From positions 1-61,563 of the IMG/VR virus record IMGVR_UViG_3300041809_002848: a DNA stretch of 61,563 nucleotides; one strand, given 5' to 3'. The notes beneath the pieces are model-generated. The model saw only the letters and a list, made by a program, of their open reading frames with translations, was not told the DNA's origin and did not search any database. Of this stretch, positions 9,122 to 59,627 are shown in pieces (within the stretch, counting starts at the first letter, position 1; the number at the start of each line of letters is the position of its first letter). The translations under genes were made by a program, and so were the position numbers. Source of the stretch: a virus (taxonomy: Duplodnaviria; Caudoviricetes).

Positions 9122-9122
9122 C

Positions 9123-21691: not shown

Positions 21692-22464
21692 TGGACCTCC
21701 ACGAGGTCGCCAAGATCATCGCCGCCGCCGGGGGTGGCTCCGACCTGCGTCTGCGGCTCGGCACGGTCACCGCCGTGCCCGGCGACGGCACCTTCTCGGC
21801 GACGATCGCCGGCTCGACCACGGTCGTCTCGGGCCTGCGCTGCTTCGCCAGTGTGACGCCGGTAGTGGGCAAAGGCATCGTTTTGGCCGTGCAGGGCGCC
21901 GACATCTTCGGCATCGGCACGATCGGCGCGCCGGCCGGCGCCGCCTCTGTTCCGTCTGGCCTGATTGCTATGTGGAAGGGCAGCATCGCCTCGATTCCAG
22001 CCGGCTGGGCGCTCTGCAACGGCTCCAATGGCACGCCTGATCTGCGCGACAAGTTCGTCGTGGGGGCCGACGCCGACGTGGCGGGCACGGCCGAGTCGAC
22101 CGTGGGCGGCGCCGCGGCCCAGGCCGGCGGCGCCACAAGCGCCTCCTCGACCTCTGCCGGCAGCCACCAGCACACCGACCCGGCGAGCGGCGGCTACCAG
22201 CTCCAGGTCGCCGATATGCCGAGTCACCGGCACGCGACGCTGGTCGATCTCATCCGCAACGACTCCGCCGGCTCGACCAACAGCCACTGGGGCACCTCGG
22301 CCGGCCGCTACATCGTCGCCGGCACCGGGCTCATCGACTTCACCGGCGGCTCAGGCTCGCACTCGCACCCGTCTGGCGGCCTGACCGATGTCCAGGGCGC
22401 CCACACCCACGCAACCGCGACTCTGCCGCCGTGGTACGCGCTCGCGTTCATCATGAAGCTCTAG
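21691..22464 (+). CDS. Tail fibre with collar domain
   Basis: PSGLIAMWKG..IPAGWALCNG.NGTPDLRDKF; H-x-H repeats; LPPWYALAFIMKL. Confidence 0.85.
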   Translation: MDLHEVAKIIAAAGGGSDLRLRLGTVTAVPGDGTFSATIAGSTTVVSGLRCFASVTPVVGKGIVLAVQGADIFGIGTIGAPAGAASVPSGLIAMWKGSIASIPAGWALCNGSNGTPDLRDKFVVGADADVAGTAESTVGGAAAQAGGATSASSTSAGSHQHTDPASGGYQLQVADMPSHRHATLVDLIRNDSAGSTNSHWGTSAGRYIVAGTGLIDFTGGSGSHSHPSGGLTDVQGAHTHATATLPPWYALAFIMKL

Positions 22465-22475
22465 GAGGGCCAGCC

Positions 22476-22835
22476 ATGACCGACGAATCGCAGCCGCAGC
22501 CGGCCGCCGGCTCGGTGCCTGAGTTCACTCCCCAGCAGGTCTGGGTCCTCGACGTGGTGGCCGAGCGCGCCGCCAACAAGGTGGTCGATCGCCTCACCCA
22601 GCGCGAGTGCCAGCTTCCCTGCCCGAAGATGGACGCCGTCTCGAAGTTCTGCTTCGGCAAGGCCGAGGACGGCGTGCCGGGGCTCGACGTCCGCATGCCG
22701 GCTGCCGAGGCCGCTATCGCCGCCGTTCAGGAGAGCATCACCTGGCTCAAGCGCACCGTCGCCGGCGCGATCGCCGCGGGTGCCGTCGCCTTCGTCGTGT
22801 GGGGGCTCGAGCAGCTCTCTCGCCACGCCGGTTAA
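22476..22835 (+). CDS. Small protein with C-terminal TM helix (holin/haemolysin-like)
   Basis: GGAGG RBS; WLKRTVAGA plus TM segment, conserved in B. Confidence 0.55.
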   Translation: MTDESQPQPAAGSVPEFTPQQVWVLDVVAERAANKVVDRLTQRECQLPCPKMDAVSKFCFGKAEDGVPGLDVRMPAAEAAIAAVQESITWLKRTVAGAIAAGAVAFVVWGLEQLSRHAG

Positions 22836-22883
22836 GGCCGTTCAGGCCCGCCGCGGCGTGATTGATACCAATGGACCATGCCA

Positions 22884-23387
22884 ATGAAACGGCCATGGAC
22901 CACGCGTGAGGTCGCCTACCTGAGGGACAACCGCGAGCTCGGAGCTGCCACGCTGGCCGAGCTCATGGGCCGCTCTCTCTGGTCCGTCCGTAGTGCCGCT
23001 CACTACCACCGCATCTCGCTGCGCCGGCCGCGCGACGCGCGCGGGCGCCTCTTCGGCGAGCTCGCCGCCGTCTGTCTCGAGGAGCTGCGCGCCGCCGTCA
23101 ATGAGGCGCCGGCGCACTACTCCGCCCGCATGGACGAGCGCCGCGAGGCCGAGCTCTGCTGCAACTGCGGACACCGACCCGTCCAGGTAGAGCGCGCCGG
23201 GCTTTGTGGTCCCTGCTACGCGCGCGTCATGGCCTGCCGGGCGCGGGATGCCCGCGACGAGCTCGAGCAGGTCAAGCTCCTGCTCGCCGAGCTCATCGAG
23301 GAGTACGGCACGGCACTCGACCTGCCACGGCTGGCGGCGCAGATGCGCAGCCGCCGCAGCCGTGCTCGCCTGCGGAAGGGCGCGTGA
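22884..23387 (+). CDS. HTH plus Zn-finger putative regulator
   Basis: WT..E..YL...LAELMGRS..SV HTH; CCNCG...LCGPC. Confidence 0.65.
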   Translation: MKRPWTTREVAYLRDNRELGAATLAELMGRSLWSVRSAAHYHRISLRRPRDARGRLFGELAAVCLEELRAAVNEAPAHYSARMDERREAELCCNCGHRPVQVERAGLCGPCYARVMACRARDARDELEQVKLLLAELIEEYGTALDLPRLAAQMRSRRSRARLRKGA

Positions 23388-23854
23388 GCCGCTTCGCCCG
23401 GCCGTGTCGGGTCTGCGGGGCGCGCTCAGCGCCGGGCAATGACCGCTGCGCTCGCCACGCCGCCGGGTCGGGACGCGCCTCGAGCTGTCGCAGATGTGGC
23501 GCCCGCACCTCGGGCGCCGGCTACTGCGCTCCCTGCGCGGCGATCGTCGAGGCCGAGCGTCAGGCCGAGCAGGGCTACCGCGAGGAGTACTCCAAGGTGG
23601 AGTACCTGCGCAATCGCCGGCGGCGCTTCGAGCTCGCCGGCGGGCTCTGTGAGGTCTGTGGCCAGCCGCTCGACCCGGCTCACTTCGAATGTCACCACGT
23701 CGTCGCGCTGGCCGACGGCGGGCACTCCGAGCTTGCCAACCTGCGCGTCACGCACGGGCGACCATGTCACCAAAGCCTTACGGCGGCGCAGCGTCGCCGG
23801 CGATCTTCCAGGAGGGGTCATCGTGGCGACACCAGCTCAGCTCATCGCTCGTAA
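23384..23854 (+). CDS. Second HNH endonuclease with N-terminal Zn knuckles
   Basis: CEVCG...ECHHVVAL..GG....NL...H..CH. Confidence 0.8.
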   Translation: MSRFARPCRVCGARSAPGNDRCARHAAGSGRASSCRRCGARTSGAGYCAPCAAIVEAERQAEQGYREEYSKVEYLRNRRRRFELAGGLCEVCGQPLDPAHFECHHVVALADGGHSELANLRVTHGRPCHQSLTAAQRRRRSSRRGHRGDTSSAHRS

Positions 23855-24581
23855 GAAAGCCATGCTCGCCTTCGGGCGTGCGGCCGGGCTACCCGTCCCG
23901 GCCGGCTTCAACGCGACGCTCGGGACCTTCGGCGGGCCGGCCCAGCGGTTTCTCAAGGTGATCCAGCGCGCGCTGGGTGTGCCGGCGACCGGGGCCTGGG
24001 GGCCGGTCGTGCAGAGCGTCCTGTTCGCCAAGAGCTCGAGCGCGATTGGCACGCGCTACGAGCACGCCGTGCGCCGCTCCGGAGAGCGCTCCCTGGCGGC
24101 GGTCAAGCTCTACGTGCTGCACGACATGGAGAACGCCAACGAGCTTCATGCCGCCGAGCAGACCGGCTCGTTCTTCGAGTCGCGCTCAGCGACCGGCTCG
24201 AGCCACTTCGGCTGCGACGACGACTCGATCGAGCAGTACCTGCCGCTCGACGTCGTCCCCTGGGGCGCACCGAACGCGAACACGGACGGCATCCATCTCG
24301 AGCAGATGGGACTCGCCGCTTGGTCGACGCATCAGTGGTACCAGAAGGCCGCTGGCACGCTCATGAACACGGCATGGCTGCTCGCCTATCTGTACCACCA
24401 CGCCACGCCGCACGTCCCGCTGCGCGAGCTCTCAGACGCCGACCTGCGCGCCGGGCAGGCCGGCGTGACCACGCACCGCCAGATCACCCGGGTGCTCGGC
24501 GGCGGCACGCACACCGACCCGGGGCCGAGCTACCCGCTCAGCTATGTCATCCGGCGGGCGCAGGTCTTCGCCGGCATCTAG
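23823..24581 (+). CDS. Endolysin: PG-binding-like N-terminus plus Amidase_2
   Basis: VLHDME, SSHF, WGAPNANT.GIHLE, TH...HTDPG. Confidence 0.88.
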   Translation: MATPAQLIARKKAMLAFGRAAGLPVPAGFNATLGTFGGPAQRFLKVIQRALGVPATGAWGPVVQSVLFAKSSSAIGTRYEHAVRRSGERSLAAVKLYVLHDMENANELHAAEQTGSFFESRSATGSSHFGCDDDSIEQYLPLDVVPWGAPNANTDGIHLEQMGLAAWSTHQWYQKAAGTLMNTAWLLAYLYHHATPHVPLRELSDADLRAGQAGVTTHRQITRVLGGGTHTDPGPSYPLSYVIRRAQVFAGI

Positions 24582-24594
24582 CAAGGAGGGCACG

Positions 24595-25368
24595 TTGATC
24601 TACCGCACGGGCAAGCTCCCGAAGGTCGAAGATCCGCGCACGCTGCAGCTCGCACGCTACCTGCCGGCCGCCGGCGCCCTGCCGGCGCCGCCGCCGAGCG
24701 TGGACTACGGTGCCGCGGTCACCGCCTGGGGCATGATGGGCAACGATCGCGTGGGCGACTGCGCCCTGGCCGGCATGGGCCATGCCGACCTGCTCTGGGC
24801 CGCCAACGCCGAGCGCCGCCGGCTGCGCATCACCACCGCCATGGTGATTGCCGCCTACTCGAAGGTGACCGGCTATGTGCCGGGCGAGGAGAGCACCGAC
24901 CGCGGGACCTCGTTGCTGGACGCGCTGCGCTGGTGGCACAAGCAGGGCATCGCGGGGCAGACCATCCGCGCCTTCGTCGAGGTCGACCCGCGCGACGTGG
25001 AGAACGTGAAGCGCACGGTCGACTGGTTCGGCTGTGCCTACATCGGCGTCGAGCTCCCGGACGCCGTGCTGCCGACCTCGCCGAGCTCGCTGCCGGAGTG
25101 GACCTGCTCGCCCGACGGTTCGCCGGCGAAGCGGCCCAATCCCCACAACGGGCACTGCGTCATCTACTGCGCTTACAACGCGACCGGCCCGGTAGCCGTC
25201 ACCTGGGGCACCACGGTACAGGTCTCCTGGGCCTTCCACGCCGCCTACTGCGACGAGCTCTACGCCCTCCTTGCGCCCGCGTGGTTGCAGGCCGCCTGGC
25301 TTGAGCAGATCAACCCTCTGTTCGACGTCGCGACGCTGACCGCTGACCTGCAGGCGATCGCGGCCTGA
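24595..25368 (+). CDS. Papain-like cysteine peptidase in the lysis cassette
   Basis: GNDRVGDC...GHCV...VTWG; TTG start after AAGGAGG. Confidence 0.7.
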   Translation: MIYRTGKLPKVEDPRTLQLARYLPAAGALPAPPPSVDYGAAVTAWGMMGNDRVGDCALAGMGHADLLWAANAERRRLRITTAMVIAAYSKVTGYVPGEESTDRGTSLLDALRWWHKQGIAGQTIRAFVEVDPRDVENVKRTVDWFGCAYIGVELPDAVLPTSPSSLPEWTCSPDGSPAKRPNPHNGHCVIYCAYNATGPVAVTWGTTVQVSWAFHAAYCDELYALLAPAWLQAAWLEQINPLFDVATLTADLQAIAA

Positions 25369-25403
25369 ACAGAACCCTCGTCCAGATCGCGCGAAGGAGG
25401 ACC

Positions 25404-25637
25404 GTGAAAGAGAAGATCATAGCGGCCGCCAAGGTGCTCGGCAGGGCCTTCGTCGTCGGCGCCGTGGGCGGCGTCGGCACGTTTCTCACCGACAACGGCC
25501 TGCCGACGAGCCTGCACACGGCGGCGGTCGGCACCCTCTACGCCGCCGCCGGCGGCGGGCTGGCCGCCGTGTTCACCATCATCGAGCAGTGGTTCGACCG
25601 CTCGCAGACGGCCTTCGGGCGGGTGGCCAGAGCATAG
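25404..25637 (+). CDS. Holin
   Basis: 77 aa, two hydrophobic segments, last gene of the lysis cassette. Confidence 0.65.
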   Translation: MKEKIIAAAKVLGRAFVVGAVGGVGTFLTDNGLPTSLHTAAVGTLYAAAGGGLAAVFTIIEQWFDRSQTAFGRVARA

Positions 25638-25717
25638 CTGCGTGGTCTCCGTGCACGTCGCGACTGGTTTCTTCTAACTCTCAAGTTAAGCAAGAGATGC
25701 GCCACGCTTGCGGCCAC

Positions 25718-25766
25718 TTGCACGGCTCGAAGTCAGTGATTAGGGTCTCACAAGAACATACGTTCG
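25718..25766 (+). promoter_or_regulatory. Early sigma70-type promoter with LexA-type SOS box
   Basis: TTGCAC-N17-TAGGGT followed by GAAC-ATAC-GTTCG at 25754-25766. Confidence 0.7.
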
Positions 25767-25975
25767 TGTCGGTTCTCAGTACTCATTGACCGCCACACGA
25801 ATCCGCACCTGAGGGGACGTCCACCAACGCATTCGAACCCTGTCAGCCCAGGGGCGCGACAGCGCGCCCTTACATCGGCCACCGCGGCGTCGCACGGCGC
25901 CGCCCGCATCCGCCCAGGAAGGGAGGTGAAGCCGCTCCGTCACCACTGAACGCTAACCTCGACAAGGGAGAGACC

Positions 25976-26182
25976 TTGCACCGCCAAAAGCGAAGGCGCC
26001 CCGGCCTCGACAGCATGGGCGCCCCCGATCTGCCTCGTGAGCAGACGCCTCCTAGTATTCTCACGCCTTCGTGCGCCGTCAACTTAGCTGCACCCGACGA
26101 GCTCGGCGCCGAGACCCACTCGTTCCACCGCTGGCTCCTGACCCTAGTCGGCGACGCCGGCTGCTCAAGGAGCTCCCGGTGA
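25976..26182 (+). CDS. Leader ORF coupled to the next gene
   Basis: AAGGGAG RBS, TTG start, GTGA overlap with 26179; positional equivalent at 59185-59358. Confidence 0.4.
   Translation: MHRQKRRRPGLDSMGAPDLPREQTPPSILTPSCAVNLAAPDELGAETHSFHRWLLTLVGDAGCSRSSR
25985..26047 (-). ncRNA. Predicted antisense sRNA (two hairpins plus U-tract)
   Basis: Minus-strand TTGACG-N17-AATACT promoter (26082-26054); TCTGC/GCAGA hairpin, then GGCGCCC/GGGCGCC-TTCGCTTTT terminator; same layout in B. Confidence 0.6.
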
Positions 26183-26409
26183 GGGTGCGCGATCGCGTAG
26201 AGCTCGTCTCCGACCACTTTCGCGATCTGCCAACGACGCTCGGACCCGGCGCGCTTGCCATCCACCTTCACCTCGGTGAGCGCGCCGTCCGGCGACTCGT
26301 CGCCCAAGGCAAGCTCCGCCGCCTGCGCTACACGTCGGACGTACGCGTGTCCTGCCTCGAGCTCATCCGGTTCCTCGACGAGCAGACCGGCGAGGGGGGT
26401 GCCTCATGA
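26179..26409 (+). CDS. Excisionase-like wHTH protein
   Basis: LA.HLHLGERAVRRLVAQGKL; paralogue 59355-59627. Confidence 0.7.
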   Translation: MRVRDRVELVSDHFRDLPTTLGPGALAIHLHLGERAVRRLVAQGKLRRLRYTSDVRVSCLELIRFLDEQTGEGGAS

Positions 26410-26819
26410 GGTGGGACGAGGAGTACCGGCTCGCCGCCCGTCGTCATCGCCGCCGGCGCCAGATCGAGCGCCTGCTCGCGCCGCGCTGGACGCCGCGCCA
26501 GGCCGCCCGTTGGCATCGCTCCGCGTGGGGCCGCGCCGACGACCCGCGCCTCGAGGCATCGCTGCTGCGTGACTTCGGTCCCGTCACCGACGAGGAGCGC
26601 GCTCTCGAGGCGCGCATCTCCCGCGAGCACCGTCTGGTCGAGCGCGCTCTCAAGGCGAGTCTCGCGCGCGAGACCATGCAATCGCTCGCGCAGCACATCG
26701 AGCGCGCCTACGGCGTTCCCTACGTCAAGGACCTCACCGACGACCAGCTCGACGATCTCGAGGCGTGGGTCGCGCGTCGTGAGGAGCTCAAGGATAGGAG
26801 GCGTCGTGCAGACGTCTGA
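26406..26819 (+). CDS. Hypothetical phage protein
   Basis: ATGA-coupled; paralogue 59627-60055. Confidence 0.7.
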   Translation: MRWDEEYRLAARRHRRRRQIERLLAPRWTPRQAARWHRSAWGRADDPRLEASLLRDFGPVTDEERALEARISREHRLVERALKASLARETMQSLAQHIERAYGVPYVKDLTDDQLDDLEAWVARREELKDRRRRADV

Positions 26820-27549
26820 GAACTGGGGCGATCTCGCTGCCGCGCTCGCCGCATTCAACGCTGCGGTGACCAACCCGATTGCTGACCAGATCGCCAAGGT
26901 CCACTCGAAGCGGACCAACACCGACTTCACCTACCCCTACGCCGACCTGGGTGGCATTACCAACGTTGTGCGTCCGGCGCTCGCGGCGCACGACCTCTCG
27001 GTTGTGCAGGACGTCGTGTTCGAAGAGGCGCGGGGCTGGGTCGGCGCCGAGACCACGATTGTCTGGGGCAAGCCGGGCGAGGCGAGCCAGTGGGCGCGCT
27101 TCGCTCCGGTGTGGGTGCCGATCCCCGACGATGGCTCCGCGCAGGACATCGGGAAGGCCATCAGTTACTCACGCCGCTATGGCTACCTGACGGCGCTCGG
27201 GCTGGCGACGCGCGAGGACAGCGACGGGCCGGCCGCGTTGAGCCGGCGCCAGCAGAAACCGGCGCAAACGGCTACTCCGAAACAGGCGGCGCCGGCTGCG
27301 ATCGGCCAGCAGCGTGCCGCCGCGCTCATCGGTCTGGCGAATCGCAAGGGCAAGACCGCCGAGGACCTGACGGCCTTCGCCGTGGCGCTCGGGCTCGACA
27401 AGACTAAACGGCTCCACGAGGCGTCGCCGGCGCTAGCCGACCGCATCGGCCGACGTCTCGAGGCGCTGCCTGACCGCTTCGACGCGAACGGCGTCGAGCT
27501 CCCGGCGCCTGTGGACGACCACGACGACGCTCCCAAGGACGAGCCATGA
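26806..27549 (+). CDS. erf: ERF-family single-strand annealing protein
   Basis: Y.YADL..I...RPALA, QDIGKAISYSRRY...LGLA.EDSDG. Confidence 0.9.
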   Translation: MQTSENWGDLAAALAAFNAAVTNPIADQIAKVHSKRTNTDFTYPYADLGGITNVVRPALAAHDLSVVQDVVFEEARGWVGAETTIVWGKPGEASQWARFAPVWVPIPDDGSAQDIGKAISYSRRYGYLTALGLATREDSDGPAALSRRQQKPAQTATPKQAAPAAIGQQRAAALIGLANRKGKTAEDLTAFAVALGLDKTKRLHEASPALADRIGRRLEALPDRFDANGVELPAPVDDHDDAPKDEP

Positions 27550-27622
27550 TCCTCTGTTCGGGTGTCGACTTCGCGGCGGTCAAAGCCGAGAAGGTCCTCG
27601 ACCTGTGCATCCGGGGCCGGCT

Positions 27623-27961
27623 GTGAGCGCCGTCGAGGGCACGGACCAGCTCTCGCTGGGCGTCGACCCGCTGGCCGACGTGCTCGCGTGGCGCCAGGAG
27701 AACGAGGCCGCATGGCGCCAGATCGTCAAGTGGGCTCACGAGGACCGCGCCGCCGCCATCGCGCCGTCGACGCGCGCCTACGCCTACTTCCTGCGCCGGC
27801 CGCACTTCGTCCGGCGCCTGCGCCTCACGCGCATGCTCGGCGACCAAGTGCTCATCAACGACCACATCACGTCAGGGCTCTCGCGTCTGCTCAACCGCGA
27901 GTTCCCGGCCCTCAAGGTGCCAACGCGCGAGGCCGCGGTCGATTCCTGGCCGACGTCATGA
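27623..27961 (+). CDS. Hypothetical phage protein
   Basis: Paralogue 60973-61326. Confidence 0.65.
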   Translation: MSAVEGTDQLSLGVDPLADVLAWRQENEAAWRQIVKWAHEDRAAAIAPSTRAYAYFLRRPHFVRRLRLTRMLGDQVLINDHITSGLSRLLNREFPALKVPTREAAVDSWPTS

Positions 27962-28815
27962 GCTGGCTCGAGTCTCACCAGTCCCTGCGCGACCACCCGA
28001 AGAAGGACCGCCTGGCCGAGCTCCTGTTCGAGGGCATGGTGCCCGACGACGTCGCCGACCTCGCGGCCATCGGTCTCCTTCACCGTCTCTGGTGGTGGGC
28101 GATCGACTACGCACCTAAGGGCGACCTCGCATCCTTCACCGACCGCCAGCTCGCCAAGGGCTGTGGGTGGACCGGAGACGCCGGCGCGCTGCGTCCCGCT
28201 CTCATCGAGGCCGGCCTCGTCGATCGTGAGACCGGCGAGCTTCACGACTGGCGCGAGTACACGGGTCGTCTCATCGAGAAGCGCGAGACTGACGCGGAAC
28301 GAAAGCGTCACACCCGTGCCGCGTCCGCTGGACGTCCCGCGGACGCTCCGCAGGACGGCGCAGGTACCTACCTACCTACCAAACCAACCAACCATACCGA
28401 CCTACCAGGGTCGGACCTTCCACAGGGTGAGGATGAGCGTTGCCCGGTTGAGTCGCTCCGGCTCGACGAGCTCGGCTTCTCCGTCGAGCAGTTCATCGAC
28501 GAGCACGGCGTGAAGGCGCTCCGCGCGCTCGACGCGCTCGGGAAGCGCACATGCGCCGAGTGTCGGCGCCTTGCCGAGCCGGCGCCGTGTCGGGTGATCT
28601 CGGCAACCTGCCGCGAGGCGTTCGTCGGTCGATTCCGGCAGGCGATCGCCGCCGCGCCCAAATCCTTGCCGGCGTACCTGGCAGCGATTGACGGCGCGCT
28701 ACCAGAGCGTCTCATCGAGGAGCTCGCCGACGCCAAGCGCCGGGCGCAGCGGTCTGGCGCCGGCCCATCTGGCGAGCCCGAGCGGCTCGCGGTCTCCACG
28801 GGGAGGTCATCGTGA
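27958..28815 (+). CDS. Phage replication initiator
   Basis: WLESHQSLRDHPK...LHRLWWWA...LHDW.EY N-terminal wHTH; internal repeats. Confidence 0.75.
   Translation: MSWLESHQSLRDHPKKDRLAELLFEGMVPDDVADLAAIGLLHRLWWWAIDYAPKGDLASFTDRQLAKGCGWTGDAGALRPALIEAGLVDRETGELHDWREYTGRLIEKRETDAERKRHTRAASAGRPADAPQDGAGTYLPTKPTNHTDLPGSDLPQGEDERCPVESLRLDELGFSVEQFIDEHGVKALRALDALGKRTCAECRRLAEPAPCRVISATCREAFVGRFRQAIAAAPKSLPAYLAAIDGALPERLIEELADAKRRAQRSGAGPSGEPERLAVSTGRSS
28324..28406 (+). repeat. Putative replication origin: three CCGC(N)GGACG iterons followed by CTAC/CAAC tetranucleotide repeats
   Basis: tccgctggacg tcccgcggacg ctccgcaggacg, then tacctacctacctaccaaaccaaccaacc, inside the initiator gene. Confidence 0.55.
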
Positions 28816-29237
28816 GTCCATCGCGCTGTCGCCGTCTCGAGCTCTCGCTGCCGCTGCCACCGAGCGTCAACCACTCGCACCGCAACATCCGGCTTCGCTC
28901 GAAGCGCACGGGCCGGCTCTACACCGCGCAGTCGCCGACCAAGGCATGCCGGTCCTGGCGCTCGACGGCGGGCCTGTACATCAACCGGGCTCGTGGCGAC
29001 GCGCGCTGGGAGACGATCGCACGGCCGGCGCGCGTCGTCGTCGAGCTCCGGTACTTTTGGCCGGACCTCCGGCGCCGCGACACCCACAACCGCATCAAGG
29101 AGGTCTGCGACGCGCTCCAGCGCTGCAGGGTTTTCGAGGACGACTGCCAGGTCGTCGTGCACGAGCTCGGCTTCGAGCTAGACCGCGTAAACGGCCACCT
29201 TGAAATCGCGGTCTTCGCCGAGGAGGCCGGGCCGTGA
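28812..29237 (+). CDS. rusA: RusA-family Holliday junction resolvase
   Basis: LPPSVN, PD.RRRD..N.IK...DAL......DD.QV. Confidence 0.88.
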   Translation: MSPSRCRRLELSLPLPPSVNHSHRNIRLRSKRTGRLYTAQSPTKACRSWRSTAGLYINRARGDARWETIARPARVVVELRYFWPDLRRRDTHNRIKEVCDALQRCRVFEDDCQVVVHELGFELDRVNGHLEIAVFAEEAGP

Positions 29238-29536
29238 CCGGCATCGACGGCGTGCTCGGCGCCTTCCTCGAGGCGACCGGCGGCGAGGATCCTGAGGCGC
29301 TGCGAACCATGCTCGAGGGCGTCGACTACGACCTACCGCGTTACGAGCTCCTGCCGCAGCATCCCGTCGACCGGCGCCGAGGGCTCGAGCTCCGCGCCGA
29401 GCGCGCGGCGCTCCGCCGGCGCCTGGCCGAAATCGCCGTGCCAGGAACCAGCGCCGGCGCTCGTCGTCTCGCGCGGTGCCGGCACTACCTCGAAGCGGCT
29501 GGCTACACCGTGCTGCCGCCTGGCAGTCGGCGCTGA
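29234..29536 (+). CDS. Hypothetical protein
   Basis: GTGA-coupled, GGAGG RBS. Confidence 0.55.
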   Translation: MTGIDGVLGAFLEATGGEDPEALRTMLEGVDYDLPRYELLPQHPVDRRRGLELRAERAALRRRLAEIAVPGTSAGARRLARCRHYLEAAGYTVLPPGSRR

Positions 29537-29541
29537 ACGCC

Positions 29542-29952
29542 ATGCTGTCGCAACCGGCCGTCTGCGCGCATTGCGGGGCCGCTCTCGCGCGAGACCACGT
29601 CGGTGCGGCGCTCTGCTCGCCTTGTGCCGCCGCTGCCAATGCGGGCGCCGTGGATATCGCCGTCCTTCCGGCAGACCGGCTGGCGCGCGTCGTCGCTGGC
29701 GTGCTCCTTCTCTACAGCGGGCTCCGCCCGGGACGGCGTGTGCCGGTGCGGCGGATCCTCGCGCAGTCGGGCGTCTCCGCCGAGGCATGGGAAATCCACC
29801 ATTCCGTCGAGACCCTGCGGGCTCGCGGCTTCGTCATCGACGCGGTCGAACGCCGGCGCGGCTACCGCTTCATAGACTTCGCGCTCGTGCCGCTCACCCG
29901 CGGCTTCTGCCGGCGCCGGCGCGCATCGTCTCACCAAATCCCTCTCGTCTAG
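29542..29952 (+). CDS. Zn-finger plus wHTH-like protein (possible activator)
   Basis: CAHC...LCSPC; VETLRARGFVIDA..RRGY. Confidence 0.55.
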   Translation: MLSQPAVCAHCGAALARDHVGAALCSPCAAAANAGAVDIAVLPADRLARVVAGVLLLYSGLRPGRRVPVRRILAQSGVSAEAWEIHHSVETLRARGFVIDAVERRRGYRFIDFALVPLTRGFCRRRRASSHQIPLV

Positions 29953-29996
29953 GAGGCTCTTGTGGCCAGCCTTCGCGGGCCTTCGGCGTCTCCAGG

Positions 29997-30016
29997 CTCT
30001 GCGAATTCTCTGCGAA
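29997..30016 (+). repeat. Tandem CTCTGCGAA repeats (possible integrase arm-type sites)
   Basis: Copies at 29997-30005 and 30008-30016, about 100 bp from the att core. Confidence 0.4.
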
Positions 30017-30115
30017 ACCCACACCAATCTTCACGCCTACGCTCGCCGGCGCCGCTCCAGGCCGACACCAAAATACTGGGATTTTGCAGGGCTTTGACCA
30101 GGTTGGTGCAGGAAG

Positions 30116-30163
30116 GACTACCGATTATGAGTCGGCAGCTCTAACCAACTGAGCTATAGGCCC
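30116..30163 (-). tRNA. 5' half of tRNA(CAT) (Ile2- or Met-type), att junction; not a complete tRNA
   Basis: GGGCCTA-TA-GCTC-AGTTGGTTA-GAGC-T-GCCGA-CTCATAA-TCGGT-AG; no T arm or 3' acceptor strand. Confidence 0.85.
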
Positions 30164-30169
30164 ACATGC

Positions 30170-31408
30170 CTATTTGCGGGACTTTTGTCTCCGCTTCTCG
30201 TCGAGAGAGATCACCGAAGTGCTAACGACGTGCGAATCTCCCGCCACTTTCGCCAGGGCGACGTCAATCAGACGCTCTTGCTCGTCCGTTGCGGCCCTGC
30301 TGGCGCGCTCAGTGACGTGCAGGTAGATGTCGGCTGTGGTCGACGACTGCGCATGACCAAGGCGCTCCTGGACGACCTTCAGCATACGCTCCTTGTCCGA
30401 GCCGCCCTGTTCGAAGAGCGCGGTGGCGTAGGAGTGGCGCAGGTCGTGAAGGCGCACGATCGGCAGGCCGTGCCGACGGCAGAAGCGCCGCCAGGACGAC
30501 GAGAGATCGTTGGGGCGCATCGGCTCGCCGCTTGCGCGACAGCAGACGTGCAAATCGGGGTTCCAGGCGCCGCGGTGGGCGAGGTGCATCTCGTCGATGG
30601 CCGCCTTCTCTTCGCGCAGGATCTCGACTAGCTGGCGCGGCACCGGGATGTCGCGCACGCCAGCGGCACTCTTGGGCGCGACGACGTGCAGGCCCTCTCT
30701 CGTCTGCTCGAGCGAGCGAGCGATATGGATCACGCCCGCTTTGAGGTCGCAGTCGCCCCACTGTAGGCCGCAGATCTCGCCGGCGCGTAGACCTGCCCAG
30801 GCGCCGAGCGCCAGTGGCACGAAGACCTGCAGACCATCGGCTGCCTTTAGGCCGCGCGCGACGTCGTCCTGCGACCAGGTCACGACGTCGCGACGCGCCT
30901 GGCGTGGCGGGTCCTGCACGCGCTCCGCCGGGTTGCGGTCGACCAGGTCTTCTCTGAGCGCCCAAGAGAAGGCAGCGCGCACCGTGGCGTGGATGTGGCG
31001 CCTGCTGGTCTCTGAGAGGCCGGCATCGCGCTTGGCCGCGTAGAGCGCCGTGAGGTGCGAGGGGCGCAGGTCGCGCGCCAAGATATTGCCGAGCTCTGGG
31101 TCGATGTGGTGGCGCACGTTGTCGGCGTAGAACTGGCGCGTCTTGGGCCGAACGTCGATCGTCGCGAGCCAGCGTCGGCAGAGTTCGGCGACCGTGAGGC
31201 GCCGCGGATCGGTGCATGAGTGCTGTTCGATCTCTGAGAGCCAATCGGCGAGCGCCTTGTCGGCGGCGCGTACGCCTTTGGCCTGAACGACCTTTGTAGC
31301 GCGCGGATAGCGCCGGCGCCCATCTGTGACGGTCGCCGGCAGGTTCGCGACGAGGCGCCATGTGCCGCGTCCGAGGTCCTCGTGGTGGCCGGTGACCCTT
31401 CTCTCCAT
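30170..31408 (-). CDS. int: Tyrosine integrase
   Basis: GLRAGEICGL, RLHDLRHSYAT, LGHAQSSTTADIY; likely leaderless ATG at 31408, 7 nt after TAGGAT. Confidence 0.95.
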   Translation of the reverse strand: MERRVTGHHEDLGRGTWRLVANLPATVTDGRRRYPRATKVVQAKGVRAADKALADWLSEIEQHSCTDPRRLTVAELCRRWLATIDVRPKTRQFYADNVRHHIDPELGNILARDLRPSHLTALYAAKRDAGLSETSRRHIHATVRAAFSWALREDLVDRNPAERVQDPPRQARRDVVTWSQDDVARGLKAADGLQVFVPLALGAWAGLRAGEICGLQWGDCDLKAGVIHIARSLEQTREGLHVVAPKSAAGVRDIPVPRQLVEILREEKAAIDEMHLAHRGAWNPDLHVCCRASGEPMRPNDLSSSWRRFCRRHGLPIVRLHDLRHSYATALFEQGGSDKERMLKVVQERLGHAQSSTTADIYLHVTERASRAATDEQERLIDVALAKVAGDSHVVSTSVISLDEKRRQKSRK

Positions 31409-31548
31409 GGCAGGCATCCTACCGCGAGGGGCTCGGCAAAGCGACGCCGACACGGGTTCGCTAGTCTCCATATCTGCCGACCATGAGCCGGAGCGAGCGC
31501 CCGCACCATCAACGGGCGAGCGTCGCACCGCGGTGGCGGGCGGTGGCC

Positions 31549-31833
31549 CTAAGTGCGGATTATGCCCCGGGCTACCAAACGAGCTACGTACTCGTCGCCG
31601 CTTAGGGTGCACTCGACCAGTTGAACGAATTCTTTCTTGGCAATCTTTGCCTGCTTCGCCATGAGCCCGATGAGTGTGTCTCCACACTCGGCGCCGCCGT
31701 GGCTGATCTTGGTCCAGACCTGCGTCTTCTTACCGTCGACGTACAGGGAGTAGTAGTGGTGATCCTTCTCCGATCGCACGAACCCTTTGGATTGCAGCGC
31801 GCCGTCTATCTGCCTGGTCTTGATGACGGTCAA
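31549..31833 (-). CDS. HicA-like toxin
   Basis: L.SKGF....DHHYY...TKISHG...IGLMAKQ pattern. Confidence 0.65.
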   Translation of the reverse strand: MTVIKTRQIDGALQSKGFVRSEKDHHYYSLYVDGKKTQVWTKISHGGAECGDTLIGLMAKQAKIAKKEFVQLVECTLSGDEYVARLVARGIIRT

Positions 31834-32309
31834 TCGCAGGTTCCTGCCACGACCTCACGCATGCGACTCTTCAATTCGAGGCCGTCGCGACTTAGGTTCG
31901 AATCGGCCTCGTTAGCAAAGTCGTCCCATAGGAAGAAGAAGTCACGGGCGAATTCGCTGAGGACTGAACTACGATCCTCGACACAGCCCACGATGTCCAG
32001 ATCCGAACACTGGTACGTCCAGCAATCTTGATCGGGCAACACGTCAAGAAACAAAAGTTTGCCAAGGCTCAAACACCGGTCTTCCAGGCGAACCTGATGC
32101 AGCGTCAGCCGTTGCATGAAAGGAAAGGCCCCCGTACTCGTTTGGCGTTTTGGAAACAAACCCACTGTCACGTTCATCGATGAACTGCCGTATCGTTTCA
32201 TCGGCTGAGCGCCACCTACGCTTGAGGCTTGTGCTGAGACATCCAACGCGCAGGAACCGGAACTCGTTATGCACGCACTCTCACCGGCTCGAAGAGCCGC
32301 AGCAATCAT
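31830..32309 (-). CDS. Putative antitoxin with HicB-like C-terminal domain
   Basis: Coupled to the toxin; DLDIVG......EF...FLWDDFA.E.D..LS. Confidence 0.5.
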   Translation of the reverse strand: MIAAALRAGESACITSSGSCALDVSAQASSVGGAQPMKRYGSSSMNVTVGLFPKRQTSTGAFPFMQRLTLHQVRLEDRCLSLGKLLFLDVLPDQDCWTYQCSDLDIVGCVEDRSSVLSEFARDFFFLWDDFANEADSNLSRDGLELKSRMREVVAGTCD

Positions 32310-32635
32310 GGCGTCTCACCGCCCGCTGCTATGGAGTCGCGCCTGGCGGTTAGCGCGACAATCAGAGGGTCGAGAAGATCGGGCGAAATCGAGATACAGG
32401 CCACCGGTGAGGCAGTTATCCTCGGCTTTGGCTTCTTGGCGAGCGCCCGCGCCTCGTTCTCGGCGAATGGGACTCGTGCTTGGCCGAAGAAGAGTGTGAC
32501 TTCCCACGCCGTATTGCTCACTGAAACATAGTTTGCGTAGAGGGACATCGGCATGTCCGCGACCGCCGGCGGCGTCACTTCGATTTGTTTTGGCGCCTCA
32601 AGAGGTTCAGGCGGCTTGGGTTGTGAGTCTGCCAT
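32306..32635 (-). CDS. DUF3467-like protein
   Basis: YANYVSV.....EVTLFFGQ...ISISP..L..LI.AL; GGAGAGG RBS. Confidence 0.65.
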   Translation of the reverse strand: MADSQPKPPEPLEAPKQIEVTPPAVADMPMSLYANYVSVSNTAWEVTLFFGQARVPFAENEARALAKKPKPRITASPVACISISPDLLDPLIVALTARRDSIAAGGETP

Positions 32636-32839
32636 GTACCTCTCCAATGGTCGGCCTAGACACCGGGCTCGTTCTTCCCATTACGCGTCCGAGCGCCACG
32701 CGTTGTGCGACGCGTCGAGCTTAGCAGAGTCATCGAGTGGTGTCGCCGATACGCGCTAAGGCGGTAAGGGGGACAGAAAGCGGGGCGGCAAACGCCCGAC
32801 CCGGCCGCCCGGGGCGCGCGATCAAGCTCGAGGGCTCGC

Positions 32840-33637: not shown

Positions 33638-33669
33638 GATCTCTCCTCATTTGTGACGGGTGGGCTGAC

Positions 33670-33701
33670 TGAACGTTCATAATCGGTCAATGATATCATT
33701 G
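33670..33701. promoter_or_regulatory. Divergent promoter region with palindromes (likely DeoR operators)
   Basis: TGAACGTTCA (33670-33679) and CAATGATATCATTG (33688-33701). Confidence 0.5.
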
Positions 33702-33767
33702 TCATGAGTGAAAAAGACGACGATACTTCAGGTGCCAACGACCACCACGAACTGCAAGGGGTACCTG

Positions 33768-58689: not shown

Positions 58690-58760
58690 TTGCACGGCCG
58701 CCGGGTCGTGGCATAGCATTCCGCACGTTACGTACGTTCTGGAGAACGTACGCAACGTGC
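58690..58760 (+). promoter_or_regulatory. Early promoter with 18-bp inverted-repeat operator
   Basis: TTGCAC-N18-TAGCAT, then GCACGTTACGTACGTTCT-GG-AGAACGTACGCAACGTGC (58723-58760). Confidence 0.7.
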
Positions 58761-58776: not shown

Positions 58777-59097
58777 GTGGGGGTCAAGATGGTCGGAGCC
58801 GAGGAATTCATCGACCTAGTGAGAGGACTGATGACCATGAAAGAGGGTGGTCCTGCGGTACTGATGACGACCGGTGAGGCGGCGGCCCACCTGGCGGCCC
58901 GCTACGGGGCCATGACGGTACCCGCCTCGGTACGTTTCTGGTGTGACTCAGACGAGCTCGACTACGCCGTCGTGGGCGGCCGCTATGTGATCGGCGCCAA
59001 GGCCTTGGACGAGTTCTGGGAGAACCGCATCGAGCGGTGCTGGCGGCGCATCCAGGAGCTGCGCCGCTCAGAGGGGCGTGACGCCGGCGAGCCGTGA
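58777..59097 (+). CDS. MerR/excisionase-like HTH protein (B only)
   Basis: LMTTGEAAAHL...SVRFWC..GGRYVI; start uncertain. Confidence 0.65.
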   Translation: MGVKMVGAEEFIDLVRGLMTMKEGGPAVLMTTGEAAAHLAARYGAMTVPASVRFWCDSDELDYAVVGGRYVIGAKALDEFWENRIERCWRRIQELRRSEGRDAGEP

Positions 59098-59184
59098 TGG
59101 TGCCCGCCTATCCTCCCTGCCTGCGAGGAGGTGATGCCGCTGTCTGAACGTTGACCGGCAACACCGACAAGCAAGGAGGATCCC

Positions 59185-59358
59185 TTGCACTGCCCAAAAG
59201 AACGGCGGGCTCCCCTGGAAGAGACGCCCGCCATCCATCCACTTGCATGGACGTCGCACATCATGGGCCTGTTTGGCCCACTCGTCAACGTCGCTGGGCC
59301 ACTGACGGCCACTGCCCGCCACGGCGCGCCTGCCCGAGCTGAGGGGAGCCGGCGATGA
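59185..59358 (+). CDS. Leader ORF coupled to the next gene
   Basis: AAGGAGG RBS, TTG start, open for 57 codons, ATGA overlap at 59355. Confidence 0.4.
   Translation: MHCPKERRAPLEETPAIHPLAWTSHIMGLFGPLVNVAGPLTATARHGAPARAEGSRR
59195..59253 (-). ncRNA. Predicted antisense sRNA (two hairpins plus U-tract)
   Basis: Minus-strand TTGACG-N17-CATGAT promoter (59288-59260); GTCCAT-GCAA-GTGGAT hairpin, then GGCGGGC/GCCCGCC-GTTCTTTT terminator. Confidence 0.6.
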
Positions 59359-59627
59359 GCCGCGCCCGCGGTGGCGAGCCCGGCCTTCACCCGACGGACA
59401 GTCACAAGCCGCGCGAGGCTCGCATCGAGCCGGTCGACCTTTTGCACCTGCCCACCGTCTTGGACACCGCCGATCTCATGAACGTGCTGCGCGTCGGTGA
59501 GAACCGGGTGCGCCACCTGGTGGCCGGCGGTGCGCTGCGCCGCCTGCGCTACTCCCGCGAGATCAAGGTCTACCGCGGCGAGGTGCTGCGCTTCCTGCGC
59601 GAACAGACCGACGGCGAGGTGCTCTGA
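59355..59627 (+). CDS. Excisionase-like wHTH protein
   Basis: Paralogue of 26179-26409. Confidence 0.7.
   Translation: MSRARGGEPGLHPTDSHKPREARIEPVDLLHLPTVLDTADLMNVLRVGENRVRHLVAGGALRRLRYSREIKVYRGEVLRFLREQTDGEVL

What the first reader, a model, noticed from the sequence alone, without database searches (positions are those of the whole stretch)
25900..26182. Candidate RNA-based immunity switch: antisense two-hairpin sRNA opposite a translationally coupled leader ORF
Seen in both phages (A 25985-26082; B 59195-59288): a minus-strand TTGACG-N17-(-10) promoter, a ~60-nt transcript with a small hairpin plus a terminator hairpin and U-tract, lying inside a TTG-start leader ORF whose stop overlaps the first early gene. 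Architecture is conserved while sequence has diverged. The sRNA loops also match the leader's initiation region: CCTCGACA occurs at 26005 and just before the RBS at 25957 (A); ATCC(A)CTTGCA at ~59237 echoes ATCCCTTGCA over the TTG (B). Upstream, both share GGAGGTGA.GCCGCT...CTGAACG with the SD-like sequence in a hairpin. Knowledge: P4 CI and P1 c4 RNAs give immunity this way. Inference: an uncharacterised, repressor-independent, phage-specific immunity system that would let two close relatives coexist.
Basis: partly seen in the sequence, partly recalled or inferred. Interest (0 to 1): 0.8.

Follow-up and report, generated by a model that had tools for sequence, protein, structure and literature searches.

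The report
Antisense small RNA in prophage early leader
Two related prophages of an uncultured wetland actinobacterium each carry what looks like a small antisense RNA gene, set inside a short leader reading frame that is coupled to the first early gene; this resembles plasmid and phage RNA switches, but no experiment has tested it.

Summary
The core observation holds and extends beyond the window. Both prophages have a minus-strand promoter (TTGACG-17-nAnnnT). It lies in front of a ~62-66 nt unit made of a small hairpin, a GC-rich hairpin and a U-tract. The unit sits in codons ~4-24 of a TTG-start leader ORF whose stop overlaps the start of an HTH_17 early gene.

I found the same layout in four further variants (L149, L004/L005, L156, L160). 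The sequences differ but spacing, reading frame and stop/start overlap are kept. Nine of 20 stem pairs change on both sides among four lineages. The 16 G-U pairs all fit the minus strand; on the plus strand they would be A-C mismatches. The structured RNA is therefore the antisense transcript.

Two sub-claims are not supported. The loop/initiation-region "echoes" are chance-level and not conserved. "Repressor-independent immunity" is untested: a conserved plus-strand early promoter lies upstream, with a palindrome behind it in B, and B and the L156 variant have an extra HTH gene there.

Best reading: a cis-antisense lock on leader translation, and through coupling on the early operon. The closest layout is R1 CopA/tap/repA; P22 sar and P1 c4 are closest in setting. 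It is a new variant of a known kind. No match in Rfam or the phage collection. Expression is unproven.

The parts
25718..25746 (+). Phage A candidate early promoter P_E: TTGCAC-17-TAGGGT
   Evidence: The pattern TTGCA-N18/19-TAGNNT has 2 matches in the 61.5 kb window, at the equivalent places in A and B, against 0.08 expected. The same pattern sits upstream of the element in L004/L005 and L156. Too weak for the sigma-70 scan.
25751..25939 (.). Untranslated stretch between P_E and the box; the only part of 24544-27549 covered by a contig of an RNA library
   Evidence: run X5 (metatranscriptomic library) gives one 189-nt contig, 0 differences, depth 4.5. Strand is unknown. DNA carry-over is not excluded.
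25922..25929 (+). Orphan Shine-Dalgarno-like box GGAGGTGA, with no start codon at working distance
   Evidence: Present 54-58 nt before the leader start in A, L149, B/L008 and L004/L005; GGAGGTGG in L156. Not seen in L160. Function unexplained.
25963..25978 (+). Leader initiation region: SD AAGGGAG plus the TTG start; CAAGG and CCTTG can pair
   Evidence: Read. A strong SD 5-8 nt before the start in all six variants. The CAAGG(N6)CCTTG inverted repeat is in A, L149, B and L156, predicted as a small helix.
25976..26182 (+). Leader ORF of phage A (68 aa, TTG start); its stop TGA overlaps GTG of the HTH gene (GTGA)
   Evidence: Open, with a stop/start overlap, in 6 of 6 variants. Only the first ~36 codons align. 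GC3 of those codons is 0.56-0.72, against 0.81-0.95 for the HTH genes.
25984..26048 (-). Candidate antisense sRNA of phage A (~62-66 nt): hairpin 1 at 26046..26028, terminator hairpin at 26027..25991, U-tract at 25990..25984
   Evidence: The 5' and 3' ends are inferred from the promoter and U-tract, not measured.
26054..26082 (-). Promoter of the antisense RNA, phage A: TTGACG-17-AATACT
   Evidence: TTGAC at 17-nt spacing from an nAnnnT or TAnnAC hexamer in all six variants (by eye).
26179..26409 (+). First early gene of A after the leader: HTH_17 / excisionase-like DNA-binding protein (76 aa); followed by Erf, replication initiator and RusA
   Evidence: The hits are weak: PF12728 at E 0.0012, below its cut-off; PHROG 66 at E 3e-4.
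58690..58719 (+). Phage B candidate early promoter P_E: TTGCAC-18-TAGCAT, followed by an inverted repeat at about 58722-58765
   Evidence: the repeat was read by eye.
58831..59097 (+). Extra HTH_17 gene of B between P_E and the element; absent from A
   Evidence: PF12728 at E 0.0013, below its cut-off. A homologous gene lies at the same place in L156.
59127..59134 (+). GGAGGTGA box of phage B
59185..59358 (+). Leader ORF of phage B (57 aa, TTG start); its stop overlaps ATG of the HTH gene (ATGA)
59193..59254 (-). Candidate antisense sRNA of phage B: hairpin 1 at 59252..59237, terminator hairpin at 59236..59200, U-tract at 59199..59193
59260..59288 (-). Promoter of the antisense RNA, phage B: TTGACG-17-CATGAT
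59355..59627 (+). HTH_17-like first early gene of B after the leader (90 aa)
   Evidence: 50% identical to the A protein in the 4-row alignment and 45% in the 7-row alignment.

Best explanation
Each phage carries a cis-encoded antisense small RNA gene (a countertranscript).

Inferred steps:
1. A sigma-70-type promoter inside the leader ORF fires against the early operon.
2. It makes a ~62-66 nt RNA with a 5' recognition hairpin and an intrinsic terminator. The RNA ends about 6-10 nt after the leader's TTG.
3. The RNA is fully complementary to codons ~4-24 of the leader. Pairing blocks initiation or elongation of leader translation, and probably creates an RNase III substrate.
4. The HTH_17 gene starts inside the leader's stop codon and has a weak SD of its own in most variants, so it is silenced with the leader.
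5. The Erf, replication-initiator and RusA genes behind it are then lowered by polarity.

The role I think most likely is a post-transcriptional second lock. It would keep leaky transcripts from the upstream early promoter P_E untranslated in the lysogen and set a threshold for entry into the early programme. Its specificity would lie in hairpin 1.

Shown here: the sequence architecture, its conservation, the compensatory changes and the strand of the structure. Inferred: transcription of the RNA, its ends, the pairing outcome, the coupling, and the biological role.
For: Promoter
- It is the only promoter-like site in each region, on the minus strand, against 0.1 expected.
- TTGAC plus a 17-nt spacer is kept in 6 of 6 variants, while the flanking codons differ.

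Structure
- On 7 rows, 20 pairs: 99.3% of cells are paired, 10 pairs change on both sides, and 0 of 500 shuffles reach this. Sliding the partners by 1-3 columns gives at most 53.6% pairing.
- On one row per lineage (4 rows): 9 of 20 pairs vary on both sides and stay paired, and 4 are invariant.
- Strand test: the minus strand has 110 Watson-Crick, 29 G-U and 1 unpaired cell. The same columns on the plus strand have 110 Watson-Crick, 0 G-U and 30 unpaired.
- The U-tract follows the hairpin only on the minus strand.
- All six variants show a two-hairpin-plus-tail fold. It is the minimum-energy fold for B, C, D and E, the centroid for L149 and the consensus fold for A; z from -1.8 to -2.9.

Geometry
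- The distance from the box to GTCAAC is 162-165 nt.
- The distance from the start codon to the end of GTCAAC is 105 or 108 nt in five variants, always a multiple of 3.

Coupling
- The leader is open, and its stop overlaps the HTH start, in 6 of 6 variants: GTGA, TGATG, ATGA, GTGA, TTGA, GTGA.
- Leader lengths differ (52-127 aa) and the tails are unrelated or deleted.

Module behaviour
- L149 joins an A-type untranslated region and sRNA body to a different sRNA promoter and a B-type HTH gene. The break lies at the inferred sRNA 5' end.

Precedent
Against: - No transcript has been seen. The one RNA-library contig on this stretch lies upstream, at 25751-25939, not on the sRNA.
- The -10 hexamers are weak in some variants: AACGAT in L004 and L149, and TACAAC in L160. 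These would fail the scan's own rule.
- The simple terminator scan did not call the hairpins.
- Only 4-5 independent lineages exist, so the shuffle statistics are inflated by near-duplicate rows.
- L160 was placed by eye; the covariance model does not find it.
- GC-rich DNA forms hairpins readily, and a 60-codon open frame has roughly a 1 in 4 chance at this G+C (my estimate).
- Structure around the HTH start is not clearly stronger than the average of the surrounding RNA. The unpaired probability is 0.18-0.46 there against 0.25-0.40 overall.
Confidence: 0.55

Rival explanations
1. The antisense RNA is itself the immunity determinant. Made constitutively in the lysogen, it alone keeps the early operon off without a protein repressor. 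Its divergent sequence defines immunity groups, which lets A and B reside in one chromosome.
For: - No CI-like or peptidase-S24 repressor was recognised among the early-region ORFs I scanned with Pfam, PHROGs or NCBIfam.
- In the regions I checked by composition (22000-33800 and from 55000), the only minus-strand ORFs beside int are short ones or overlap plus-strand genes in the way shadow frames do.
- A and B structural genes are 77-86% identical, but 25366-26731 and 58410-59967 do not align.
- The A and B sRNA/target pairs are orthogonal: -48.8 against -155 and -140.5 kcal/mol.
- P4 immunity works through an RNA that causes premature termination (PMC4825925, passage read). The c4 RNA underlies P1/P7 heteroimmunity (PMC12197685, passage read).
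- An RNA-library contig covers only the untranslated stretch just downstream of P_E. This would fit an active P_E whose message is stopped later, but it is a single contig of unknown strand.
Against: - P_E is conserved and in B is followed by an inverted repeat typical of an operator.
- B and L156 have an extra HTH gene there, and every variant has the HTH_17 gene.
- Several small early ORFs have no assignable function, so a repressor can easily be hidden.
- The non-aligning region also contains these proteins and P_E, so its divergence does not single out the RNA.
- The sRNA does not cover the SD or the start codon.
- A and the L004 phage share a 95% identical terminator hairpin.
Confidence: 0.15
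2. The mechanism is the same, but the role is dosage control during lytic growth or replication, as in plasmid copy control. The constitutive antisense gene rises with genome copy number and shuts down the early replication operon. It would act as a timer for the early-to-late switch and not as a lysogeny function.
For: - The controlled operon encodes Erf, a replication-initiation protein and RusA.
- In B and L156 the order is promoter, small DNA-binding protein, antisense target, leader ORF, coupled gene. This matches PcopB-copB-(CopA)-tap-repA of R1 (PMC5717011, passages read).
Against: - The gene directly coupled to the leader is an HTH protein, not the replication initiator.
- The elements are integrated prophages with a tyrosine integrase.
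- Nothing here bears on timing.
Confidence: 0.12
3. There is no regulatory sRNA. The hairpins and U-tract are only a minus-strand terminator or insulator, or an mRNA structure that slows leader translation. The promoter-like hexamers are conserved because they encode Val-Asn and neighbouring codons.
For: - GTCAAC is in frame as V-N in all six leaders.
- Some -10 hexamers are weak.
- The covariance model also picks up ordinary GC-rich terminators in unrelated genomes.
- No transcript has been observed.
Against: - The rest of the leader protein is not conserved, so protein-level selection on V-N alone is unlikely.
- The 17-nt spacing to an nAnnnT hexamer is kept through sequence turnover.
- The G-U bias (29 against 0) excludes a plus-strand structure as the selected one.
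- In the regions checked, no minus-strand gene lies upstream that would need a terminator here, apart from int 4 kb away.
Confidence: 0.1
4. It is a type I toxin-antitoxin-like pair. The leader ORF encodes a small membrane protein (toxin, or exclusion protein) and the antisense RNA is its antitoxin, as in hok/sok with the mok leader.
For: - The leaders of L004, L156 and L160 (98-127 aa) end in one or two hydrophobic helices. The L156 and L160 tails are alike (by eye).
- The tails of A, C, D and E have a coding-like GC3 of 0.76-0.83.
Against: - The leaders of the window's own phages A and B, and of L149, have no hydrophobic segment and are shortened to 52-68 aa. The RNA, the reading frame and the stop/start overlap are all kept.
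- The B tail has a non-coding composition: GC3 0.64, GC2 0.86.
- The proteins are longer than typical type I toxins (recalled).
Confidence: 0.05

Closest known systems
R1 (IncFII) plasmid CopA/CopT with leader peptide Tap and RepA
   Same: A short, constitutively made cis-antisense RNA. Control of a leader reading frame to which the next gene is translationally coupled. In B and L156, a small DNA-binding protein gene is co-transcribed upstream, as copB is (PMC5717011 passages; PMC5415839 Table 2).
   Different: This is a prophage early operon, not a plasmid replicon. The coupled gene is an HTH protein. By my placement the antisense RNA lies inside the leader coding region, not on the intergenic region as the paper states for copA. 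There is no sequence or Rfam similarity. The host is an actinobacterium.
P1/P7 c4 RNA acting on the icd-ant operon (immI)
   Same: An antisense RNA that controls a phage regulatory operon around a ribosome-binding region and defines heteroimmunity between close relatives (PMC12197685 passage). That ant translation is coupled to the upstream icd frame is recalled, not read here.
   Different: c4 is listed as trans-acting (PMC12197685 table). That it is encoded on the same strand upstream of its target and cut out of the operon transcript is recalled. Here the RNA is a true cis-antisense transcript with its own promoter and terminator. No second-site loop pairing is supported.
P22 sar RNA against ant
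   Same: A 68/69-nt phage RNA that pairs with the ant mRNA and interferes with initiation of translation (PMC12197685 passage and table). That it is made from a promoter facing the target operon is recalled.
   Different: sar covers the ant initiation region directly, with no leader-ORF coupling. It acts beside protein repressors. The host is enterobacterial.
Lambda OOP RNA against cII
   Same: A 77-nt cis-antisense phage RNA. The duplex is cut by RNase III (PMC5415839 Table 2).
   Different: OOP pairs with the 3' end of cII, not with an initiation-proximal region, and no coupling is involved.
P4 CI RNA immunity
   Same: An RNA, not a protein, keeps the replication operon off in the lysogen (PMC4825925 passage).
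   Different: CI is processed from the sense leader transcript and causes premature transcription termination by pairing with seqA and seqC. Here the RNA is antisense with its own promoter. The untranslated stretch 25751-25939 seen in an RNA library is the only hint of anything P4-like.
hok/sok with the mok leader (type I toxin-antitoxin)
   Same: A short antisense RNA against a leader frame to which a second frame is coupled (recalled). Some variants encode a membrane protein.
   Different: The window's own leaders are not hydrophobic. The coupled gene is a DNA-binding protein.

Membership tests
Cis-antisense countertranscript with leader-peptide coupling (R1 CopA/tap/repA type, functional class) | Antisense RNA gene with its own promoter opposite the target leader | tested here: met
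   Consensus promoter on the minus strand in A and B. TTGAC-17-hexamer in all six variants by eye. Activity was not measured.
Cis-antisense countertranscript with leader-peptide coupling (R1 CopA/tap/repA type, functional class) | Stem-loop RNA ending in an intrinsic terminator | tested here: met
   Folds, covariation and G-U strand bias. The tool's simple terminator scan did not call them.
Cis-antisense countertranscript with leader-peptide coupling (R1 CopA/tap/repA type, functional class) | Leader ORF whose translation is coupled to the regulated gene | tested here: inconclusive
   Stop/start overlap in 6 of 6 variants. The HTH gene's own SD is weak in L004, L156, L160 and L149 (by eye). 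Sequestration of the HTH start is not clear. Dependence itself cannot be tested here.
Cis-antisense countertranscript with leader-peptide coupling (R1 CopA/tap/repA type, functional class) | Transcript present and repressing in vivo | not testable with these tools
   Only assembled contigs of one RNA library were available.
Any curated RNA family (Rfam 15; to my recollection it includes CopA, C4, sar, OOP and Sok) | Match to the family covariance model | tested here: not met
   At gathering threshold the window's only hit is the fluoride riboswitch. At E<=1 nothing falls on the element in A or B. There is a Flavivirus_SLIV hit at 25817-25878 and a symR hit at 58722-58791, both far below their gathering scores and elsewhere in the region.
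P1/P7 c4-type immunity RNA | RNA encoded on the sense strand upstream of its targets and released by processing (recalled definition) | tested here: not met
   The structured RNA is on the opposite strand, with its own promoter and terminator.
P1/P7 c4-type immunity RNA | Loop sequences pair with short sites at the ribosome-binding region of the leader | tested here: not met
   Shared words between the sRNA body and the -60..+6 region are at chance level, and the A match is lost in L149. Cognate duplexes are no better than cross or shuffled ones.
Phage immunity system (any) | Expressed in the lysogen and sufficient to block superinfection by the same phage only | not testable with these tools
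   The host is uncultured. Only the orthogonality of A and B pairing could be computed.
Type I toxin-antitoxin (hok/sok-like) | Target ORF encodes a small hydrophobic toxin | tested here: not met
   The leaders of A, B and L149 have no hydrophobic stretch. L004, L156 and L160 do have one (translations, judged by eye, no predictor run).

The most novel reading that the evidence does not exclude
A group of actinobacterial temperate phages keeps lysogeny and sets its immunity specificity by RNA alone. The early promoter P_E stays active in the lysogen. The antisense RNA, whose hairpin 1 differs in every lineage, blocks the coupled leader/HTH gene and the replication operon. The two co-resident prophages A and B would then be heteroimmune through orthogonal RNAs. 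This would be the first RNA-only immunity outside the P4 and P1/P7 systems and the first in Actinomycetota.
Probability: 0.15. Interest if true: 0.8.

Novelty: new variant of a known kind. Interest (0 to 1): 0.5.

Why it matters
If the RNA is real, it is a compact and portable RNA switch from a little-studied phage group. The hosts are uncultured, high-G+C actinobacteria; DNA runs labelled wetland metagenome hold the stretch.

It combines two classic devices, a countertranscript and leader-peptide coupling, at the entry to a temperate phage's early operon. Four to five natural specificity variants are already in hand for orthogonality tests.

A 2025 review of phage-derived small RNAs that I searched has no occurrence of Actinobacteria, Streptomyces or Mycobacteri, so the kind appears undescribed for such phages in what I could search.

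It also offers a testable explanation of how two 77-86% identical prophages share one chromosome.

Tried and rejected
Searches for relatives that gave little
- Phage collection, blastn with 25400-27600: no match.
- Viral contigs with the 274-aa upstream protein: 4 loci, of which 2 (L004, L005) show the element in the flank. L003 is the contig on which the L156 variant lies further downstream.
- Viral contigs with the B HTH protein: 1 locus. With the A HTH protein: none. With the 7-row HTH alignment: 3 loci, all known.
- Genome contigs with the upstream-protein alignment: 26 loci, of which only L008 has the element. L009-L011 carry the gene in a non-phage setting.
- Metagenome contigs with the HTH alignment: 4 loci, of which only L149 reaches upstream.
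- HTH alignment in 89 genomes of the order of G001: 5 genomes match; the element is in G001 and G068 only. L157-L159 are other integrated elements next to tRNA genes.
- HTH alignment in 401 genomes of the class: 19 match, and the weak ones have no model hit.
- DNA pattern scans of viral contigs. One strict pattern gave 1 known locus. One looser pattern gave 77 stretches, of which the model confirms 3, all known.
- Covariance model R1 on the 89 genomes: 7 genomes hit, and only G001 is real. I read the context of L189 and L193, which are terminators between ordinary genes. The alignments of L190, L191, L192 and L194 show only GC hairpins.
- R1 does not find L160.
- Leader protein of L004 against 5.8 billion proteins: 2 hits.

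Ideas tested and dropped
- Second-site pairing of sRNA loops with the initiation region.
- A conserved hairpin around the GGAGGTGA box.
- The A and C untranslated regions as remnants of the extra HTH gene: tblastn E >= 0.22.
- A structured RNA in 25751-25990: z -1.42.
- Sequestration of the HTH start: inconclusive.
- Exact direct repeats of 11 nt or more flanking prophage A as att sites: none found.
- A 53-aa minus-strand ORF at 25748-25909 under the RNA contig. By my hand translation and hand count it has GC3 of about 0.67 and about 6 non-synonymous to 4 synonymous differences against L149, which is not convincing.
- A repressor among the early ORFs: none recognised.

Read laying
- The RNA run X5 has no contig on the sRNA, the leader or the genes. 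With contigs of depth ~4.5 and a ~65-nt RNA this says nothing either way.
- The contig start at 25751 is shared with a DNA contig of X1, so I do not read it as an RNA 5' end.

- Supplements of papers were not opened. Supplementary Table S1 of PMC12197685 (38 phage sRNAs without a described function) could bear on the novelty claim.
Full report
**Setting**

The window is a 61.5 kb virus record that holds two related prophages.

- Prophage A runs from about 3217 to a tyrosine integrase on the minus strand at 30170-31687.
- Prophage B starts at about 37043 and runs off the end of the window.
- Host-type genes lie to the left of A (a SpoIIE/PAS/GAF protein at 685-3060). Between the two prophages are a DeoR regulator, a GFA enzyme and an EamA transporter.
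- The structural and lysis genes of A and B align at 77-86% identity. The stretches 25366-26731 and 58410-59967 do not align at all. Similarity resumes in the Erf gene at 72%.

The finding lies in this non-aligning stretch, between the last late genes and the early genes. The last late genes are a 274-aa protein of PHROG 19005 and a small ORF. The early genes are an HTH_17/excisionase-like protein, Erf, a replication initiator and RusA.

**The observation**

- The promoter scan returns a single site in each region, on the minus strand: TTGACG-17-AATACT at 26082..26054 and TTGACG-17-CATGAT at 59288..59260, against 0.1 expected.
- Downstream on the minus strand there is a small hairpin, a long GC-rich hairpin and a U-tail. 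B folds this way directly (-33.8 kcal/mol, z -2.90). For A (-36.9 kcal/mol, z -1.86) the minimum-energy fold pairs the ends, and the two-hairpin form appears as the consensus fold. The plus-strand folds are weaker, z -1.31 and -0.93.
- The unit lies in codons ~4-24 of a TTG-start ORF: 25976-26182 in A and 59185-59358 in B. A strong SD precedes each ORF.
- Each ORF's stop overlaps the start of the HTH gene, as GTGA at 26179 and ATGA at 59355.
- A box GGAGGTGA lies 54 and 58 nt before the TTG.
- The tool's simple terminator scan did not flag the hairpins. Their loops exceed its 3-8 nt rule.

**Relatives**

The element is rare in what I could search, but it is not confined to this record. I found four further sequence variants.

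| Variant | Source | Note |
|---|---|---|
| L004/L005 | two virus records | |
| L156 | a third virus record | |
| L149 | a metagenome contig | |
| L160 | a genome of the same order as the L008 genome | |
| L008 | a genome titled uncultured Actinomycetes bacterium | near-copy of B |

Five variants share these spacings:

- GGAGGTG(A/G) lies 54-58 nt before the start.
- CCTTGC spans the TTG.
- An A-run follows 6-7 nt later.
- GTCAAC ends 105 or 108 nt after the first base of the start codon.
- The whole unit is 162-165 nt.

L160 uses ATG and is 12 nt longer. It has the same order of parts and folds the same way. I placed it by eye, because the covariance model built from the others does not detect it.

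The wider searches added nothing further. They are listed under Tried and rejected.

**Is it a structured RNA, and on which strand?**

- On the 7-row alignment, the two helices (20 pairs) are paired in 99.3% of cells. Ten pairs change on both sides, and 0 of 500 shuffles reach these values. Sliding the partners by 1-3 columns drops pairing to 35-54%.
- Several rows are near-duplicates, so I recounted with one row per lineage (A, B, L004, L156). Four pairs are invariant, and 9 vary on both sides with every cell still paired. Six change on one side through G-U, and 1 has a single mismatch. In cells that is 63 Watson-Crick, 16 G-U and 1 other, of 80.
- The G-U pairs decide the strand. Over the 7 rows the minus strand has 110 Watson-Crick, 29 G-U and 1 unpaired cell. 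Read on the plus strand, the same columns give 110 Watson-Crick, 0 G-U and 30 unpaired.
- The U-tract follows the GC hairpin only on the minus strand.

Selection has therefore kept a minus-strand RNA with a terminator, directly downstream of a conserved TTGAC-17-hexamer. The hexamers are AATACT, CATGAT, AACGAT (twice), GATACT and TACAAC. Some of these are weak.

**The leader ORF**

The ORF is open in all six variants, and its stop overlaps the HTH start each time: GTGA, TGATG, ATGA, GTGA, TTGA, GTGA. Several observations bear on whether the protein itself matters:

- Its length ranges from 52 to 127 aa, and only the first ~36 codons align.
- Those codons have a weak third-position G+C (0.56-0.72), against 0.81-0.95 in the adjacent HTH genes. 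This suggests they are constrained by the RNA and its promoter, not by the protein.
- The tails of L004, L156 and L160 contain hydrophobic helices. The tail of A resembles the last residues of L156. B and L149 have short tails, and B's has a non-coding composition.

What is kept is translation from a strong SD and a weak start codon, through the antisense target, up to the HTH start. By eye, the HTH start has only a weak SD of its own in L004, L156, L160 and L149. This is the signature of translational coupling, but the dependence itself is not shown. Folding around the HTH start was inconclusive.

**What lies upstream**

- A plus-strand promoter, TTGCA(C/T/G)-17/18-TAG(G/C)(G/A)T, is conserved. 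The pattern has 2 matches in the whole window, at 25718 and 58690, against 0.08 expected. It recurs upstream of the element in L004/L005 and L156. I call it P_E.
- In B it is followed by a long inverted repeat (by eye).
- In B and L156 an extra HTH_17 gene lies between P_E and the box. In A and L004 there is a 180-225 nt untranslated stretch instead, unrelated between the two.
- One metatranscriptomic run has a single contig on the 3 kb I laid. It covers 25751-25939, the A untranslated stretch, with no differences at depth 4.5. Its strand is unknown and DNA carry-over is not excluded. Its left end coincides with a DNA contig end in another run, so I do not read it as a transcript end.
- The GGAGGTGA box matches the extended anti-SD (recalled) but has no start codon at working distance. 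Its role is unexplained.

**Claims that fail**

- The proposed echoes between sRNA loops and the initiation region are at chance level. The 8-mer in A is matched or beaten by 39 of 500 shuffles. It is not kept in L149, whose loop changed while the upstream copy did not. The other five variants share only 5-6 nt words, and 272-483 of 500 shuffles reach that length.
- Cognate duplex energies with the non-overlapped region are no better than cross or shuffled ones.
- No Rfam family matches the element.

**Mechanism**

I conclude that the element is a cis-antisense small RNA gene. Its product pairs with the 5' coding part of the leader, starting about 8-10 nt after the first base of the start codon. 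It thereby blocks leader translation and probably triggers duplex cleavage. Through coupling and polarity this silences the HTH gene and lowers the early replication and recombination genes.

Two observations point to hairpin 1 as the part most likely to set specificity:

- Hairpin 1 is the most divergent part, at 37-53% identity between lineages. The terminator hairpin is 95% identical between A and L004.
- L149 joins an A-type untranslated stretch and sRNA body to another promoter and a B-type HTH gene.

The A and B RNAs are mutually orthogonal: -48.8 against -155 and -140.5 kcal/mol.

**Role**

The layout matches R1. [quoted passage not shown] It also resembles P22 sar, lambda OOP and P1/P7 c4 in setting (PMC12197685 and PMC5415839, passages read).

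P_E is conserved, B has an operator-like repeat behind it, and HTH genes are present. I therefore favour a secondary post-transcriptional lock beside an unidentified protein control (0.55). Sole, repressor-independent immunity is less likely (0.15), as is a dosage timer (0.12). No repressor was recognised, so the bolder reading stays open.

**Novelty and limits**

The kind of device is known, so I rate this a new variant of a known kind. I did not find it described in this setting, meaning temperate phages of high-G+C actinobacteria with the antisense gene inside a coupled leader ORF.

- The 2025 review PMC12197685 has 0 occurrences of Actinobacteria, Streptomyces or Mycobacteri. Its supplement was not seen.

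The limits are as follows:

- There are only 4-5 independent lineages.
- There is no expression evidence.
- The RNA ends are inferred.
- The host is uncultured.

Noticed in passing
window 7712-7776 and 7760-9121 (inside 7467-9181): A fluoride riboswitch above the Rfam gathering score (37.4 against 34 bits) sits in front of a 453-aa Na+/H+-exchanger-family ORF. Both lie in a stretch of prophage A's structural module that does not align with prophage B. This looks like a riboswitch-controlled cargo gene carried by a phage.
   Followed up: partly
window 25751-25939: This is the only part of 24544-27549 covered by a contig of a metatranscriptomic library (189 nt, depth 4.5, 0 differences). It is the untranslated stretch between P_E and the GGAGGTGA box. 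The strand is unknown. A 53-aa minus-strand ORF (25748-25909) lies under it but does not look coding, by my hand translation.
   Followed up: partly
window 58722-58791: A long inverted repeat lies directly after the B early promoter and looks like an operator. The same stretch gives a sub-threshold symR hit on the minus strand (27.6 bits against a gathering score of 61, E 0.005), probably because it is a hairpin.
   Followed up: no
window 25922-25929 and 59127-59134; L004 5288, L156 1109, L149 114: An orphan, near-perfect Shine-Dalgarno-like box, GGAGGTG(A/G), is held 54-58 nt before the leader start in five variants. It has no usable start codon behind it. It could be a ribosome standby site or an mRNA stabiliser, but this is unexplained.
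   Followed up: partly
L003 about 5240-5900 (same virus record as L156): Between the small ORF after the 274-aa gene and P_E, this relative carries an inserted ORF. By eye it looks like an insertion-sequence transposase. I did not test it against any library.
   Followed up: no
window 492-611 and 35655-35775: A 122-nt stretch, 74.6% identical, lies about 2.6 kb left of prophage A and about 1.3 kb left of prophage B, outside the phage homology. No exact flanking repeats of 11 nt or more were found for A.
   Followed up: no
L149 1-330: A mosaic relative. It is A-type from the untranslated stretch through the sRNA body, then switches at the inferred sRNA 5' end to a different promoter and leader tail. 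Its HTH gene is 85% identical to B's.
   Followed up: partly
L004 5345-5641, L156 1163-1468, L160 2081-1698 (minus): In three relatives the leader ORF is 98-127 aa and ends in one or two hydrophobic helices. The window's own leaders look like shortened versions. Only 2 database proteins resemble the L004 leader.
   Followed up: partly
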